Positions 260 through 5,129 are shown, counted from the first letter of the stretch. The stretch: 8,077 nucleotides of DNA from a virus (IMGVR_UViG_3300011952_000023:1-8077), one strand, 5' to 3'. Numbers and translations are program-made. The notes: generated from the sequence alone by a model not told the origin.

Positions 260-1106
260 ATGGAACTTAAATTAAAGAATATAACCAGCTATAAGAAAGA
301 TAGCTTCNNNNNNNNNNGGACTACAAAGAATGCGAATGTCCTTTCATAGATACTTTTCGCCTATTGGTTTATAATACCAAGTTTGTTGAGGATAATTTTT
401 ATAATGCAAAAGAGCAAAAAGGAGTATTCACTTTAAGTAAGGAAAATGCTGACATTGAAAAAGAATTATTGGAAAAAGAAGCTATAAGACAAGACCTACT
501 TACAAAATACCAAGATAAAAAAAACGTTATTGAGCGTTTAATTAAAGATAAAAACAATAAAGAAAATGAATATATTGATTTAATATGGAATAAAGCAGAA
601 CCTTTTAGATCATCTGACTTAAAGATCTTGATGAAAGGTCAGTTAGGAAGCAAGAGATCATTTTATGAGCAAGTTAAAAAAGCCCCTCAAACCACTGACG
701 TTAATATCGAGTCACTTGCTCAAGAATATAGTATTCTTTTAAAGAACAAAGATAAATTCACTGCATCAATTACACCTTTAGAAAAATATATCATTTCAGA
801 AAAAGATAAAGAATCTTTATCCACTCCGATTATAGACTCAAGTAATAGCTATTTGTCAGAAACAATTAAACAACTTCAAAACCTTGACTGGGTGAAAAAA
901 GGGAAGGAATTATATTTAAATGGCACATGTTGCCCATTCTGCCAAGAAGACACTATTAAAGACAAATTTTTAGAAGCAATAGAATCTATCTTTGATGATA
1001 GCTACTCCAAGAAAGTTGACCAAATACGCATTATCAGATCGTCTTATGAATCCGCTACCATAGATAATTTAAAAAAAATAAAACAAGAGATTTCATCTTG
1101 TGAATT
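260..1106 (+). CDS. 5' part of a large AAA_13/RloC-like SMC/ABC-type ATPase (N-terminal strand, coiled coil, CxxC zinc-hook-like motif); interrupted by assembly gaps
   Basis: ATG at 260 with GAGG at 250-253 upstream. The first 16 codons (MELKLKNITSYKKDSF) look like the N-terminal strand of SMC/ABC ATPases. After the N run at 308-317, frame 1 is open from 319 to 1106; the track ORF 364-1131 starts at an internal TTG and its stop lies beyond the second gap, so both ends are artefacts. The sequence is K/E/N-rich as in a coiled coil. CCPFC is at 928-942. No Walker A is visible and it is presumably inside the first gap. Very AT-rich. Confidence 0.6.
308..317. other. Assembly gap (10 N) inside the cargo ATPase gene
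   Basis: Run of n; true length unknown. The reading frame differs on the two sides (frame 2 before, frame 1 after). Confidence 0.95.
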
Positions 1107-1116
1107 NNNNNNNNNN
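1107..1116. other. Assembly gap (10 N) inside the cargo ATPase gene
   Basis: Run of n; frame 1 before, frame 3 after. The apparent stop at 1129-1131 is in the wrong frame relative to the downstream open frame. Confidence 0.95.
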
Positions 1117-2375
1117 CATCATCTCATATAGCGTTATTAGAGGAAATAGCAAACAAAAACTTAAAATTGATGTTAGATAAAATTAATAACCCATCTATAT
1201 CTATTATTTTGGAATCCAATAGCGACCTTGAAGCAAAGGTAGTTGATAATATAACAGAGTACAACAATAGAATTAAAGAAATAAATATTAAAGTCAAACA
1301 ATTTAAGGATAGTGAAAAGTCTATACGTTACAAAATATGGGGAGCAATAAGAGAATTATGCAACGCTGAGTTTGAAGCTTTCTCAAAATATGAGAATGAC
1401 TATAAAATCATTTATGAACAATATCAACTTGAATTAAATGCCATAAAAGAACAAGGAAATAACAATAACAAAAAGATCAAAGAGCTACGCGATCAAATAT
1501 CTAATATTGACGCAACCATAGATTCTATAAATCAACGTCTAAAATTATTAGGAATTTATGGTTTTAGCATAAAAAAACACACTGAGAGCAATGATAAATA
1601 CATCATATCACGTTCTGAAAACACAACAGATAAAGATGTATACAGATCTCTTAGCGAGGGTGAAAAAACTTTAATTACCTTTCTCTACTTTCTAGAATGC
1701 TGTAAAGGTAAGACAGATAAGAATGATACGGATATGCGAGATGTATTTATCGTTATTGATGATCCAATATCCAGCCTCTCTCAAAATTATGTGTACGATA
1801 TTGCCTCAATAATTCACCATGAAATAATCAACAATAACAAAGCAGTAAAGAAAACATTAATACTCACACATAATCTTTATTTCTTTCATGAACTTATCAA
1901 ATTAGCTCCTAGAAGCAAAGAAGATAGAACATTCAAGCGTGATTATTATCTTGGACGAGTAACAAAAAATGAATATAGCATAATTACAGAAATAGAGAAA
2001 AAGAGCATTCAGAATGAATACCAGTCCCTATGGCAAGTATTAAAAGATGCGAAGGATGGAAGGGTAAATAAAGTTATAATACCTAACATCATGAGAAATA
2101 TACTGGAATACTACTTCGCATTTGTTCATAGAACGGATGCATTACAGACAGAGTTAAATAAACTTGCTAGCGATGATAAGAATAATGATTTTAGAGCATT
2201 TTATAGATACATTAATAGAGGTTCCCATTCAGATGCAGTTAATATCACAGACATGGGAGATATATCTCCAGAGAAATATATGGAGCAACTAAAAACCATT
2301 TTTCGTATGACTGGCGATGAAAAACATTATTTGAAAATGATGGACGAAGAGGAAGAGGAAACCGTTACCGCTTAG
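1117..2375 (+). CDS. 3' part of the same ATPase gene: ABC signature, Walker B, H-loop, then a putative HEPN-like/anticodon-nuclease-like C-terminal domain
   Basis: Frame 3 is open from the gap edge at 1117 to TAG at 2373-2375; the track ORF 1167-2375 begins at a TTG, so continuation across the gap is the simplest reading. Motifs seen: LSEGEK (1650-1667), DVFIVIDDP (Walker B/D-loop), LILTHN (H-loop-like). Downstream are RNILE (2091-2108) and RYINRGSH (2205-2228). Acidic tail DEEEEETVTA. Confidence 0.6.
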
Positions 2376-2622
2376 GCCGCATATCATCGGGTTGGGTAAG
2401 AACGACGGTGTTCACACACCGTCTCCCACTTACCGAAACGATAGCGATTGTACTGACGTACTTTCACTAACTTTAACATGAGATTATCTCCATGCCAGCA
2501 CTATTGTTGCCAATAGCAGCCTTTACACCCTTTGTATAAAGCTAATACCAAGAGCAATGCAAGGATACCCCAAGCGGTAACTGGCGTGGATTCTAGAGCA
2601 GCCTAACTAAAAAATCAAAGCA

Positions 2623-4864
2623 TTAATTAAATCCCGGCCACTCATCATTTACCGGATACCTGAAGTTTACCCCCTCATAATTTACGGTTGCCCCACGCGC
2701 CAGCGCCTCAAGCTCCCATCGCTGAGGCCTGATACCGTTATAACCAAGGTCAACGCGGATACGGGTAATTTGCATTCGTTCCGACCGGGTCAGTCTGGCC
2801 GATGGTGCAATTTCATGTGGTTTTAACGGGCTTCCGTTTCTTTGCTGACGATTTGGCATTCTCAGCCCGTGTTTTAATGCGCCCCTGAGCGCCCTCACGA
2901 CCTTCATCAACCAGGTTAAGCACTGCTGCGGCGTGCTCAGAAGGTGTGGGAGCCGGTAACGAAGTATCACCGCCGGTGAGCTTTCCACAGTTATTGACAG
3001 GACTCCGAGGCGCGGCGATGCCGCTTTTTAAAGTCAAAGGCTCAACGACCGGCACTTTCGGCACAATGCGCCAGTCCGTCGTTCTGGTGATATGAATATG
3101 ACGCGCGCCGAGATGCGGTGCGTAAATGCCGACCACTCTCTCGACCTCTTCCTCGTACTCGTTAACGTCATCCGACGGGCTACGGGCGACTCTGACAGTC
3201 TGGCAATCACGCGGAACATTTGCCCCACCCTGCGCGCTGATATACAACGCAAAATCACCACTGTCTGCGGCGGCGCGAGCAGCCTCGACGCGTTCGTCAA
3301 ACTCATCAGCAATACTGACGCCGCGAGGCAATTTGCGTAGTTCACGGTAAGCCCCCATTGTCGGCAGGCCAACCGTTTTAAATTGCGGGATACGCCACGT
3401 TGACGCCCATGCGGTAACAGCCGCTGCAGTGTCTTTCAGCGGCCTGCCGGTATCGTTATCGAGCTGACCATCCAGTGCATAGCCGTCGATGTTTTTTGAA
3501 ATGTATTTCGCGATATATCCCGCAGCACCGCCCCGGTTAAGGTGTTTTGCCTGAAAACGGCTCCGCGCAGCTCCTCTTTCGTCGCCATCCTCTTTGAGCG
3601 CGTAGCGACGCATGATTTCAATAATCTGGTTACGCTGGCGTGGATTACAAAAAAGCATCATATGCCAGTGCGGCGTTCCGTCGTGGTGTGGCTCGACGAC
3701 ACGCAAACCGTAGACCTGTAAATCATTATCCTTGAATGCCGTGCGCATCAGGCTCCAGATACGGCAGAGATAACGCTGCGCATCCTTTGGATTAAATGCC
3801 TCATCGTTCCAGCCGTGATTAAGCTGGACGGTTTTACTTTCGCCTTTTCCGACCTGACGTGTCGGGTGATACTTTGACGGCGTGGTCAGCGTGATAAACA
3901 TCCCCACATCACCCTCTGCGGCGGCGTAACGCTCAATTCCGGCAATGGTGTTCATCAGCTCCATCCGGCGAATTTCAGGATTAGAAATACTGCCCATCAC
4001 CTTACTGATAAGGTCGATGCGCTCGCCGGTTTCCCTGTTTTCAAGGTCACACGATTTAAGAAATTCCAGATTTGCCTGGCGGCGTGCACGCACATCACGA
4101 ATGGCATGTTTACTGGCATAAGGAGAACGGTCTTTATTGACCTCCCCGACAGCAATCAGTAACGCCTCATGCCAGCGCATACGCTGGCCTTTAAGCTGAT
4201 GAGTCCACCACTCATCGTTAAACAGGCGGGCAATGGCAGAATATGCCTGCCTCGTGGTCATCTGTCCTTTACGGTATTTTTTCCAGTAGAGCGGGGAAAT
4301 ATTGAAAGCACGTGCAGCGCCAGCAACATGACCATACAGGTGAGCCTGCGCCTCATCCGTAAACAGCGATTCTTTTTCGCCATGCGCATCCACCCAGGCA
4401 TCGCAGAGTTCCTCATACATCATGAAAAGCTGCGATGAGATACGGGCGGCAAACTTTTTCAGCTCCTTGTCATTCATTCCAGGCAGGCGCGCATAGTGGT
4501 CACGCTCTGCCAGAAACAGCAACGACGCGTCGGTGTTCATTTCATGGCGCTGATTCACACGTTCAATGCGCGGCCATAAACGACGCTGAAAAGTGGATGT
4601 GAGGAAATAAAACCCGTGCACCGGGCTTTTATTGCGCCGGATGTAGTCATAGCGTGAAGTAAACAGCGAACGCAAAAAGTAAGGCAGGCGGTTAATCGTA
4701 GATAAAACACCTTGCACCTGACGCATCTCGTCACGTGTAAGGGGTCTTTCGCGCCCGACAGCCTCGCGTGGCGCGTTCCATGCATAAGCACCGGTAAACG
4801 TCTTACCGGTGCCTGCAGCAAATGCTGACGGAGGGACAAAACGCCCGGAGGCTTTAACGGCCAT
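2623..4864 (-). CDS. A: Replication initiation endonuclease (P2 gene A-like rolling-circle initiator); apparent frameshift near the 3' end (possible pseudogene or sequencing error)
   Basis: Main frame runs 2813-4864. The likely start is ATG at 4864 (MAVKASGRF...); the track start at 4906 is a TTG. It contains an HUH-like motif (TPHWHMML) and paired tyrosines (GYIAKYISK) typical of rolling-circle Rep proteins. The protein-like C-terminus (VVRALRGALKHG...RIRVDLGYNGIRPQRWELEALARGATVNYEG...) is in a different frame (track ORF 2623-2988). Joined length is about 760 aa, as I recall for P2 gpA. Confidence 0.85.
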
Positions 4865-5129
4865 ATGAGCCAAAAGCCTCTGAACAACGCTTGCTGAGTT
4901 GCTCAACCTGCGCGTTTAAATCAGCAAAAGACTTTGCGCTTCCGGTCAGAATATCGTGATGCATCAGGCCGGAAACGAGCTGGCTTAATTTCGGGTAATA
5001 ACCAACCACCGCCAGCCACTCCTGACCGGCGTTTTTACCGCTTTCCGCTCTCTTTTTCTCATGGAGAATAAACTGAAAGCTGTCACTGGTAACGACATAA
5101 CGTTCGCCAATTTCTATACGAATGCTCAT
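4854..5129 (-). CDS. P2 orf83-like early protein (function unknown)
   Basis: ATG at 5129 with GGAG 6 nt upstream. Position immediately upstream of A, with an 11-bp overlap onto the A start. 91 aa. Confidence 0.7.
   Translation of the reverse strand: MSIRIEIGERYVVTSDSFQFILHEKKRAESGKNAGQEWLAVVGYYPKLSQLVSGLMHHDILTGSAKSFADLNAQVEQLSKRCSEAFGSYGR

What the first reader, a model, noticed from the sequence alone, without database searches (positions are those of the whole stretch)
2091..2375. C-terminal domain with R-x3-E and R-x6-H motifs: possible HEPN-like RNase / anticodon-nuclease module
After the H-loop the protein continues with ...IMRNILEYYFAFVHR... and ...FYRYINRGSHSD.... The R(2094-2096)...E(2106-2108) pair and R(2205-2207)-x6-H(2226-2228) resemble the Arg/Glu/His catalytic arrangement described for the PrrC/RloC anticodon-nuclease domain and the R-x4-6-H HEPN motif. 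If correct, the ATPase is a regulator and this is the toxic effector.
Basis: inference. Interest (0 to 1): 0.6.

Follow-up and report, generated by a model that had tools for sequence, protein, structure and literature searches.

The report
Prophage RloC-like anticodon nuclease domain

Summary
On their own they are not beyond chance (both appear in about 9% of shuffles). However, they are invariant across more than 100 relatives at 27-58% identity.

A profile-profile comparison aligns them residue for residue with PrrC's experimentally essential nuclease residues:
- R647-N648-x2-E651 corresponds to PrrC R320-N321-x2-E324.
- R684-x2-N687-x2-S690-H691 corresponds to PrrC R349-x2-N352-x2-S355-H356.

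The gene (260-2375, + strand, 739 aa when intact) is a Rad50-like ABC ATPase. It has a coiled-coil insert with an invariant CxxC, and this about 140-aa C-terminal domain. That meets every sequence criterion Davidov and Kaufmann used to define RloC.

It is a lone AT-rich gene in the gpQ-gpA defence hotspot of a P2-like prophage.

Rousset et al. 2022 already list this gene type as hotspot system #5, "RloC-like", with 420 occurrences, and a near-identical protein is in their table. IMG names it "wobble nucleotide-excising tRNase". PADLOC calls it candidate PDC-S06.

Verdict: observation confirmed, interpretation supported, novelty low. No experiment on this clade was found.

The parts
260..2375 (+). 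Whole gene: RloC-like ABC ATPase plus C-terminal nuclease. It is 739 aa in intact copies. In the window it is broken by N runs at 308-317 and 1107-1116. Readable pieces are 260-307 (residues 1-16), 319-1104 (residues 50-311) and 1119-2372 (residues 322-739).
   Evidence: Pfam AAA_13 1e-63 and PADLOC PDC-S06 3.7e-152. Intact 739-aa orthologues at 98% DNA identity in E. coli chromosomes. Mapping of the fragments onto the intact protein. GC is 28-31% against 50-56% in the phage backbone.
931..942 (+). C254-P-F-C257, a CxxC 'zinc-hook' motif inside the coiled-coil insert of the ATPase.
1650..1667 (+). ABC signature motif L499-S-E-G-E-K504.
   Evidence: S500, E501 and E503 are 108/108. It corresponds to PrrC LSKGE173 (PMC3025547).
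1743..1781 (+). Walker B and D-loop: V-F-I-V-I-D535-D536-P-I-S-S-L-S542.
   Evidence: D535, D536, P537, S540 and S542 are 108/108. It corresponds to PrrC YVFIDD216 and SSLD222.
1866..1871 (+). H-loop T571-H572.
   Evidence: H572 is 108/108. It corresponds to PrrC TTH251.
1950..2372 (+). C-terminal nuclease (PrrC/RloC-type HEPN) domain, residues 599-739: a beta-hairpin, then six helices. It contains the finding (2091-2375).
   Evidence: AlphaFold model pLDDT 86.9. A profile search of 1.84 billion proteins gave 1092 clusters with E <= 1e-3; in every listed full-length protein (714-791 aa) the domain is at the extreme C-terminus. hhalign against PrrC C-domains gives 90.6% probability.
2013..2033 (+). 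N620-E-Y622-Q-S-L-W626, a conserved first-helix motif of the domain.
   Evidence: N620 107/108, Y622 107/108, W626 108/108. The global hhalign places Y622 opposite PrrC Y294 and Q623 opposite the essential PrrC H295, with low confidence.
2094..2108 (+). R647-N648-I-L-E651, corresponding to PrrC R320-N321-x-x-E324 (first half of the catalytic set).
   Evidence: R647 108/108 and E651 105/108. N648 105/119. hhalign pairing. The PrrC residues are essential by mutagenesis.
2205..2228 (+). R684-Y-I-N687-R-G-S690-H691, corresponding to PrrC R349-x-x-N352-x-x-S355-H356. This is the HEPN R-x6-H motif.
   Evidence: R684 107/108, S690 103/108, H691 108/108. N687 98/117. hhalign pairing. PrrC R349, N352 and H356 are essential.
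2325..2327 (+). H724, a family-specific invariant histidine in the last helix with no PrrC counterpart.
   Evidence: 107/108. PrrC has a variable residue at the aligned position.
2392..2437 (.). Nested inverted repeat (hairpin) 17 nt after the stop codon, between the convergent nuclease gene and gpA. Probably a terminator.
   Evidence: Arms 2392-2400/2429-2437 and 2404-2411/2416-2423. No T-run follows, so the consensus terminator scan did not call it.
2813..4906 (-). P2-type replication gene A (gpA), the right-hand flank of the defence hotspot. Its C-terminal end is frameshifted in this window.
   Evidence: Pfam Phage_GPA 1.3e-123. A 26-bp deletion between 2899 and 2900 relative to the intact 755-aa gpA of L002.

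Best explanation
Positions 2091-2375 are the catalytic core of a PrrC/RloC-type (HEPN-superfamily) anticodon-nuclease domain. This domain forms the last about 140 residues of a single-polypeptide, RloC-like abortive-infection protein encoded by a P2-like prophage.

The N-terminal about 600 residues are a Rad50-like ABC ATPase head. The head is split by an insert of about 380 residues made of long helices, which carries an invariant CxxC.

By homology with RloC and PrrC, the likely mechanism is as follows:
1. The nuclease is kept silent in the lysogen.
2. A signal from a superinfecting phage is sensed by the ATPase/coiled-coil module. For RloC this signal is DNA ends or DNA damage.
3. ATP hydrolysis switches the nuclease on.
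4. R647/N648/E651 and R684/N687/H691 catalyse metal-independent cleavage in a tRNA anticodon loop. This stops translation and aborts the infection.

Shown here: domain homology, residue-for-residue correspondence with mutationally essential PrrC residues, strict conservation, the architecture and the genomic setting.

Inferred: RNase activity, the tRNA substrate, the trigger and the anti-phage phenotype.
For: - Conservation: R647, E651, R684 and H691 are invariant or nearly so in 120 homologues and in 108 full-length representatives.
- PrrC homology: the PADLOC PrrC profile gives E 2.2e-13 through the C-terminus. Of 34 C-domain-only sequences, 4 still hit the PrrC profile, best E 8.9e-5. hhalign of the C-domain profile against 95 PrrC C-domains harvested from genomes gives probability 90.6%, E 1.3e-6, with exact pairing of the catalytic residues.
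- My PrrC alignment reproduces the published numbering and the published essential residues H295, H315, R320, N321, E324, R349, N352 and H356.
- RloC definition met: R-x3-E-x39-SH, 739 aa, CxxC in a helical insert.
- A Campylobacter jejuni homologue (39% identity over the 402-aa fragment) lies immediately upstream of hsdR, i.e. it is a restriction-linked 'rlo' gene.
- Setting: a lone gene between portal gpQ and gpA of a P2-like prophage. The same position is seen in 22 IMG/VR contigs. This is the documented P2 defence hotspot (PMC9122126).
- Prior annotation: 'RloC-like', system #5 of that hotspot. IMG calls it 'wobble nucleotide-excising tRNase'.
Against: - No experiment on this clade was found. 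PADLOC lists it only as a candidate (PDC-S06), and it is not among the systems Rousset et al. report as validated.
- The predicted catalytic loop around H691 has low model confidence.
- Two histidines essential in PrrC have no counterpart. H315 has none, and H295 aligns, with low confidence, to Q623. Active-site details or substrate may therefore differ.
- The experimentally characterised Geobacillus RloC could not be obtained for direct alignment.
- In the window itself the Walker A region is masked by N, so the intactness of this particular copy cannot be verified.
Confidence: 0.8

Rival explanations
1. The domain is a PrrC/RloC-type HEPN RNase, but its substrate or cut site is not the classical tRNA-Lys anticodon. 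It might cut other tRNAs, or mRNA or rRNA, because part of the PrrC active-site and recognition apparatus is replaced.
For: PrrC H315 has no counterpart, and H295 aligns (with low confidence) to Q623. The PrrC LARP anticodon-recognition motif is absent. The family has its own invariant residues: H724, N620, Y622, W626 and N696. HEPN RNases include mRNases such as RnlA and LsoA (PMC3710099).
Against: Both characterised relatives that share the same catalytic set and ABC fusion (PrrC, RloC) are anticodon nucleases. RloC also lacks H315 and the LARP motif, yet it cuts tRNA.
Confidence: 0.12
2. The C-terminal domain is a non-catalytic regulatory, oligomerisation or nucleic-acid-binding module of an SMC/Rad50-like ATPase. 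The conserved R/E/H residues would then be structural or ligand-binding.
For: Pfam folds the domain into the 'AAA_13' ATPase model. No solved nuclease structure matches it specifically. Some HEPN domains are non-catalytic (PMC3710099).
Against: Non-catalytic HEPN domains typically lack the R-x4-6-H motif; here it is invariant. Every residue shared with PrrC is one whose mutation abolishes PrrC toxicity, and the equivalent R/E/H triad is required for RloC nuclease activity.
Confidence: 0.05
3. The motifs are a chance resemblance, and the stretch is just the tail of an ATPase.
For: Both motifs together occur in 8.8% of shuffles of the domain.
Against: They are invariant across relatives at 27-58% identity, and a profile-profile alignment places them on the PrrC catalytic residues.
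Confidence: 0.01

Closest known systems
RloC (wobble-nucleotide-excising anticodon nuclease; Davidov & Kaufmann 2008; COG4694; founders are the Campylobacter jejuni rlo genes and Geobacillus kaustophilus RloC)
   Same: - Size in the same range: 739 aa against 658-897.
- PrrC-like ABC motifs.
- A long helical insert with a conserved CxxC, and a Rad50-like head.
- C-terminal R-x3-E-x39-(S)H, inside the defining x36-52 range.
- Stand-alone gene without a linked restriction system.
- 39% identity (C-terminal 402 aa) to a C. jejuni hsdR-adjacent homologue.

   Different: - Carried by a P2-like prophage in the gpQ-gpA hotspot.
- An additional conserved Cys (C54) and a family-specific invariant H724.
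- Direct alignment with the biochemically studied Geobacillus protein was not possible.
- No activity data exist for this clade.
PrrC (tRNA-Lys anticodon nuclease of the EcoprrI locus)
   Same: Same ABC motifs: LSxGE, (V/I)DDPxSSL(S/D) and the TH H-loop. The nuclease-domain motifs R-N-x2-E...F and R-x2-N-x2-S-H also match, aligned by hhalign at 90.6% probability.
   Different: - PrrC is 341-416 aa, with no coiled-coil/CxxC insert.
- PrrC is embedded in a type Ic hsd locus that silences it.
- PrrC has a full PrrC box, the LARP motif and the essential H295 and H315, none of which are conserved here.
- The E-to-H spacing is 31 residues in PrrC against 39 here.
P2 hotspot system #5 'AAA_13 / RloC-like' (Rousset et al. 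2022, Table S5B), equivalent to PADLOC candidate PDC-S06
   Same: This is the same gene type. A near-identical protein, WP_021520307 (99% identical to the readable window pieces, from a locus about 98% identical in DNA), is listed in their Table S5A as a one-gene 'AAA_13' arrangement. The representative sequence of system #5 is an obvious homologue. The best PADLOC hit is PDC-S06, E 3.7e-152.
   Different: Nothing of substance. That work gives only the label 'RloC-like', with no residue-level analysis and no reported phenotype.
ABC-HEPN family 'PrrC/RloC/APECO1_4465' of Anantharaman et al. 2013
   Same: An ABC ATPase fused to a C-terminal PrrC/RloC-type HEPN domain. The APECO1_4465 group is described as frequent in integrated prophages.
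   Different: Identity with the APECO1_4465 group specifically was not tested. The protein could not be located in the APEC O1 record.
P2 Old (ABC ATPase + TOPRIM), the resident of the same locus in phage P2
   Same: Same hotspot. [quoted passage not shown] A 2026 preprint reports Old as an abortive tRNase.
   Different: The effector fold differs (TOPRIM against HEPN-type). There is no sequence relationship beyond the ABC core.

Membership tests
RloC | C-terminal Arg-x3-Glu-x36-52-His motif, with Ser often preceding His | tested here: met
   R647-x3-E651-x39-S690-H691. All are invariant or nearly invariant. The definition is from PMC2610378.
RloC | ABC ATPase domain split by a largely helical insert carrying a conserved CX2C (zinc hook); Rad50-like | tested here: met
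RloC | Size about twice that of PrrC (658-897 aa) | tested here: met
   739 aa in intact copies. Relatives are 714-791 aa.
RloC | Sequence relationship to the founder rlo genes of Campylobacter hsd loci or to Geobacillus RloC | tested here: met
   A C. jejuni homologue (P0088, 39% identity, 96% coverage) lies directly upstream of hsdR. IMG assigns COG4694 names to many relatives and to this exact protein cluster. Geobacillus RloC itself was not available.
RloC | Anticodon-nuclease activity that excises the wobble nucleotide; DNA-dependent ATPase switch | not testable with these tools
   This needs biochemistry.
PrrC | Compact 341-416 aa protein without a coiled-coil insert | tested here: not met
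   739 aa with an insert of about 380 aa.
PrrC | Embedded in a type Ic restriction-modification (hsd) locus | tested here: not met
   Lone gene between gpQ and gpA of a P2-like prophage.
PrrC | PrrC box (YYNAFxEDLFYWDND) and the essential H295/H315 of the nuclease domain | tested here: not met
   Only a partial resemblance, VYNTKFVEDNFY, without WDND. H295 and H315 are 95/95 in PrrC but have no conserved His counterpart here.
PrrC | Catalytic R320/N321/E324 and R349/N352/H356 | tested here: met
   Paired by hhalign with R647/N648/E651 and R684/N687/H691.
HEPN superfamily | Conserved R-x4-6-H motif | tested here: met
   R684-x6-H691, conserved 107/108 and 108/108.
HEPN superfamily | All-alpha up-down helical bundle fold similar to solved HEPN domains | tested here: inconclusive
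HEPN superfamily | Homology to a family already assigned to HEPN | tested here: met
   Homologous to the PrrC nuclease domain, which Anantharaman et al. 2013 place in HEPN.
PADLOC PDC-S06 | Match to the PDC-S06 profile | tested here: met
   E 3.7e-152 for residues 2-395 of the fragment against profile positions 341-725 of 727. E 9.8e-65 for the N-terminal piece.

The most novel reading that the evidence does not exclude
The P2-hotspot clade may be a functionally distinct branch of RloC rather than a plain orthologue. It has its own invariant H724, a Gln where PrrC and RloC keep an essential His (H295), and a third conserved cysteine (C54) that could make the CxxC an intramolecular zinc site rather than a Rad50-type intermolecular hook. 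It occupies the slot of P2 Old. It could therefore cut a different RNA target, or respond to a different trigger than Geobacillus RloC, for example phage replication intermediates or RecBCD inhibition, as reported for Old.
Probability: 0.2. Interest if true: 0.45.

Novelty: already known. Interest (0 to 1): 0.2.

Why it matters
The result explains what a common 'AAA family ATPase' in P2-like prophages of E. coli, Salmonella and Klebsiella most likely does. It is a self-contained tRNA-cutting abortive-infection device with which the prophage protects its host against competing phages.

The practical value is modest:
- It gives a residue-level map (R647, N648, E651, R684, N687, H691, H724; C254/C257) for mutagenesis of a candidate system (PDC-S06) that is abundant but still experimentally untested.
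- It shows that the Pfam 'AAA_13' label hides a nuclease domain.

It does not open a new question. The family, its HEPN assignment and its presence in the P2 hotspot are already published.

Tried and rejected
- APECO1_4465: I tried to locate it (the prophage ABC-HEPN prototype of Anantharaman 2013) in the APEC O1 chromosome by guessing its position from the gi number. The two 50-kb stretches I read (820-919 kb) contained no such gene. The accession is not in the stored parts of the Rousset tables. Membership in that named group is therefore untested.
- A second word-indexed homologue search with the C-domain alone returned only 24 close fragments and added nothing.
- No PDB chain is similar by sequence (best E 0.05, irrelevant).
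- Foldseek against PDB gave no hit with E < 1. The afdb50 library was not available.
- I scanned the collected proteins for Geobacillus RloC numbering (R692/E696/H737) and found none.
- No dedicated HEPN Pfam family matches the domain.
- No tRNA genes are in the window.
- The promoter and terminator consensus scans were at background level.
- I considered and rejected membership in PrrC proper: size, insert, locus and PrrC-specific motifs all fail.

Full report
**What is in the window.** The finding lies at the 3' end of a + strand gene that starts at ATG 260 and stops at TAG 2373-2375.

In the window the gene is interrupted by two runs of ten N (308-317 and 1107-1116). These stand for longer stretches. 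E. coli chromosomes hold an intact 2220-nt gene about 98% identical in DNA, encoding a 739-aa protein annotated 'AAA family ATPase' (WP_063085493, WP_021520307).

The readable window pieces map as follows, with 98-100% identity:

| Window coordinates | Protein residues |
|---|---|
| 260-307 | 1-16 |
| 319-1104 | 50-311 |
| 1119-2372 | 322-739 |

The masked parts include the Walker A motif (G30-T38). From 1119 onward, residue n lies at 1119 + 3(n-322).

The gene has 28-31% G+C, against 50-56% for the rest of the window. The rest of the window is a P2-like prophage: replication gene A at 2813-4906 on the minus strand (Pfam Phage_GPA, 1.3e-123), then P2-type early genes, cox and the repressor. 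In intact relatives the gene sits alone between the portal gene Q and gene A.

**Checking the observation.** The codons are exactly as stated: Arg 2094-2096, Glu 2106-2108, Arg 2205-2207, His 2226-2228.

Short motifs like these are cheap. In 20,000 shuffles of the 141-residue C-terminal domain, both motifs appear together in 8.8%. The motifs alone prove nothing.

Conservation does.
- In the 120 best homologues (down to about 33% identity), R647 and E651 are 119/119, and R684 and H691 are 117/117. S690, N696, F656 and H724 are invariant or nearly so.
- In 108 full-length representatives of 50%-identity clusters (27-58% identical to this protein), R647 and H691 are 108/108, R684 107/108 and E651 105/108.

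A profile of the C-terminal domain alone, searched against 1.84 billion cluster representatives, found 1092 clusters (E <= 1e-3). In every full-length protein listed, the domain is the extreme C-terminus of a 714-791-aa protein.

The domain begins before the finding's start. It runs from about nt 1950 (a beta-hairpin), with a helical core from about 2007.

**Is it the PrrC/RloC nuclease domain?** The 402-aa fragment matches the PADLOC PrrC profile (E 2.2e-13) right through its C-terminus.

For a residue-level test I harvested PrrC genes from public genomes using a back-translated PrrC-box pattern. I extracted 95 complete PrrC proteins and aligned them. A Salmonella PrrC in this set carries the published landmark motifs at a constant offset of 4. 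The alignment recovers exactly the residues reported as essential in E. coli PrrC: H295, H315, R320, N321, E324, R349, N352 and H356 (PMC3025547).

A profile-profile comparison (hhalign) of the C-domain alignment with the PrrC C-domain alignment gives probability 90.6% and E 1.3e-6 over 94 columns. It pairs the following residues:

| This protein | PrrC |
|---|---|
| R647 | R320 |
| N648 | N321 |
| E651 | E324 |
| F656 | F329 |
| R684 | R349 |
| N687 | N352 |
| S690 | S355 |
| H691 | H356 |

Four of the 34 C-domain-only sequences also hit the PADLOC PrrC profile on their own.

**Which family?** Davidov and Kaufmann defined RloC as the PrrC homologues with these features (PMC2610378):
- 658-897 aa in length;
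- an ABC ATPase split by a helical insert with a conserved CX2C 'zinc hook';
- a C-terminal Arg-x3-Glu-x36-52-His, often with Ser before His.

This protein meets all of them.
- It has 739 residues.
- Its motif is R647-x3-E651-x39-S690-H691.
- C254-P-F-C257 (nt 931-942) is invariant in 108/108 relatives.
- A confident AlphaFold model of a 58%-identical full-length relative (pLDDT 88.9) shows long helices from 91 to 464, with the CxxC in a loop.

A Campylobacter jejuni homologue, 39% identical over the 402-aa fragment, lies immediately upstream of hsdR. It is therefore one of the 'restriction-linked ORFs' that gave RloC its name. IMG labels many relatives, and this exact protein cluster, 'wobble nucleotide-excising tRNase'.

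Membership in PrrC proper fails. The size is wrong, there is an insert, there is no hsd linkage, there is no full PrrC box, and there are no counterparts of H295 and H315.

**Structure.** The domain model is confident (pLDDT 86.9). It consists of a hairpin followed by six helices. R647 and E651 lie on one helix, R684 lies at the end of another, and H691 lies in the following loop, which has low confidence.

This is what one expects if no PrrC or RloC nuclease structure has been solved. The fold test is inconclusive rather than negative.

**Setting and prior knowledge.** The gpQ-gpA interval of P2-like phages is a documented defence hotspot. Phage P2 itself carries old and tin there (PMC9122126).

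Its representative sequence is a clear homologue. Table S5A lists WP_021520307, the near-identical orthologue found here, as a one-gene arrangement. It is not among the systems reported there as validated.

PADLOC carries the family as the untested candidate PDC-S06. The 2013 HEPN survey already described prophage-borne ABC-HEPN proteins of the PrrC/RloC type.

In IMG/VR, 41 viral contigs encode relatives. In 22 of them gpA lies immediately downstream, convergently. Their C-domain identity ranges from 62 to 100%, while in 16 of the 22 gpA stays 96-99% identical (68-77% or only partly aligned in the other six). That is the allelic turnover typical of a hotspot.

Other relatives sit beside methyltransferase or IS elements, in what look like defence islands.

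**Mechanism proposed.** By homology with RloC and PrrC, the ATPase/coiled-coil module keeps the nuclease silent. In Geobacillus RloC the switch is a DNA-dependent ATPase coupled to the zinc hook. After a phage-derived signal it switches the nuclease on. The nuclease then cuts tRNA anticodon loops by metal-independent transesterification and aborts the infection.

The homology, the catalytic-residue correspondence, the architecture and the location are shown here. Activity, substrate, trigger and phenotype are inferred.

This protein departs from PrrC in several ways:
- There is no H315.
- Q623 sits where PrrC has H295 (a low-confidence part of the alignment).
- H724 is invariant and family-specific.
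- A third cysteine, C54, is conserved.

These differences leave room for a different target or regulation. That is the most novel reading the data allow.

**Verdict.** However, the gene type, its HEPN/RloC assignment and its residence in the P2 hotspot are already in the literature and in databases. Interest is low. What remains open is experimental: nobody appears to have tested this clade.

Noticed in passing
window 308-317 and 1107-1116: Two runs of ten N replace about 98 nt and about 30 nt of the gene. They hide residues 17-49 (including Walker A, GHNGCGKST) and residues 312-321. The intactness of this particular copy therefore cannot be checked, and ORF callers split the gene into three pieces.
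   Followed up: yes
window 2899/2900, within gpA (2813-4906, minus strand): A 26-bp deletion relative to the intact 755-aa gpA of an E. coli prophage about 97% identical in DNA (L002). It shifts the frame of roughly the last 90 codons, leaving a separate ORF at 2623-2988. Either the prophage has a damaged replication gene or this is an assembly error.
   Followed up: partly
window 2392-2437: A nested inverted repeat (arms 2392-2400/2429-2437 around a perfect 8-bp stem 2404-2411/2416-2423), 17 nt after the stop codon, between the convergent nuclease gene and gpA. It is probably a terminator, but no T-run follows.
   Followed up: partly
window 331-333 (C54), with 931-942 (C254-P-F-C257): A third cysteine in the N-terminal ATPase lobe is conserved in 103/108 relatives, alongside the invariant CxxC. 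Whether it joins the CxxC in an intramolecular zinc site is unknown, because model coordinates could not be inspected.
   Followed up: no
window 2325-2327 (H724) and 2022-2024 (Q623): H724 is invariant in this family but has no PrrC counterpart. Q623 aligns, with low confidence, to the essential PrrC H295, and PrrC H315 has no equivalent. The active site is therefore probably not identical to PrrC's.
   Followed up: partly
window 1950-2372: The Pfam model AAA_13 (PF13166), positions about 598-712 of 713, covers this nuclease domain. Databases therefore name the whole protein an 'AAA domain' ATPase, and the nuclease goes unannotated.
   Followed up: yes
L129-L150 (IMG/VR P2-like contigs): At the same gpQ-gpA site, alleles of this gene differ strongly (C-domain 62-100% identical), while in 16 of the 22 contigs the flanking gpA stays 96-99% identical (68-77% or only partly aligned in the other six). 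This looks like cassette exchange at the hotspot.
   Followed up: partly
window 367-402 (V66-Y-N-T-K-F-V-E-D-N-F-Y): This conserved segment of the N-terminal lobe resembles the first two-thirds of the 'PrrC box' (YYNAFYEDLFYWDND), with a one-residue offset, and lacks the WDND end.
   Followed up: no
Enterobacter phage ENT4, PV844615.1 3158-4297 (hit H16): An isolated, unannotated 31-kb phage genome carries a 76%-identical copy of the 3' part of this gene. The gene family therefore also travels on viable P2-like phages outside E. coli.
   Followed up: no
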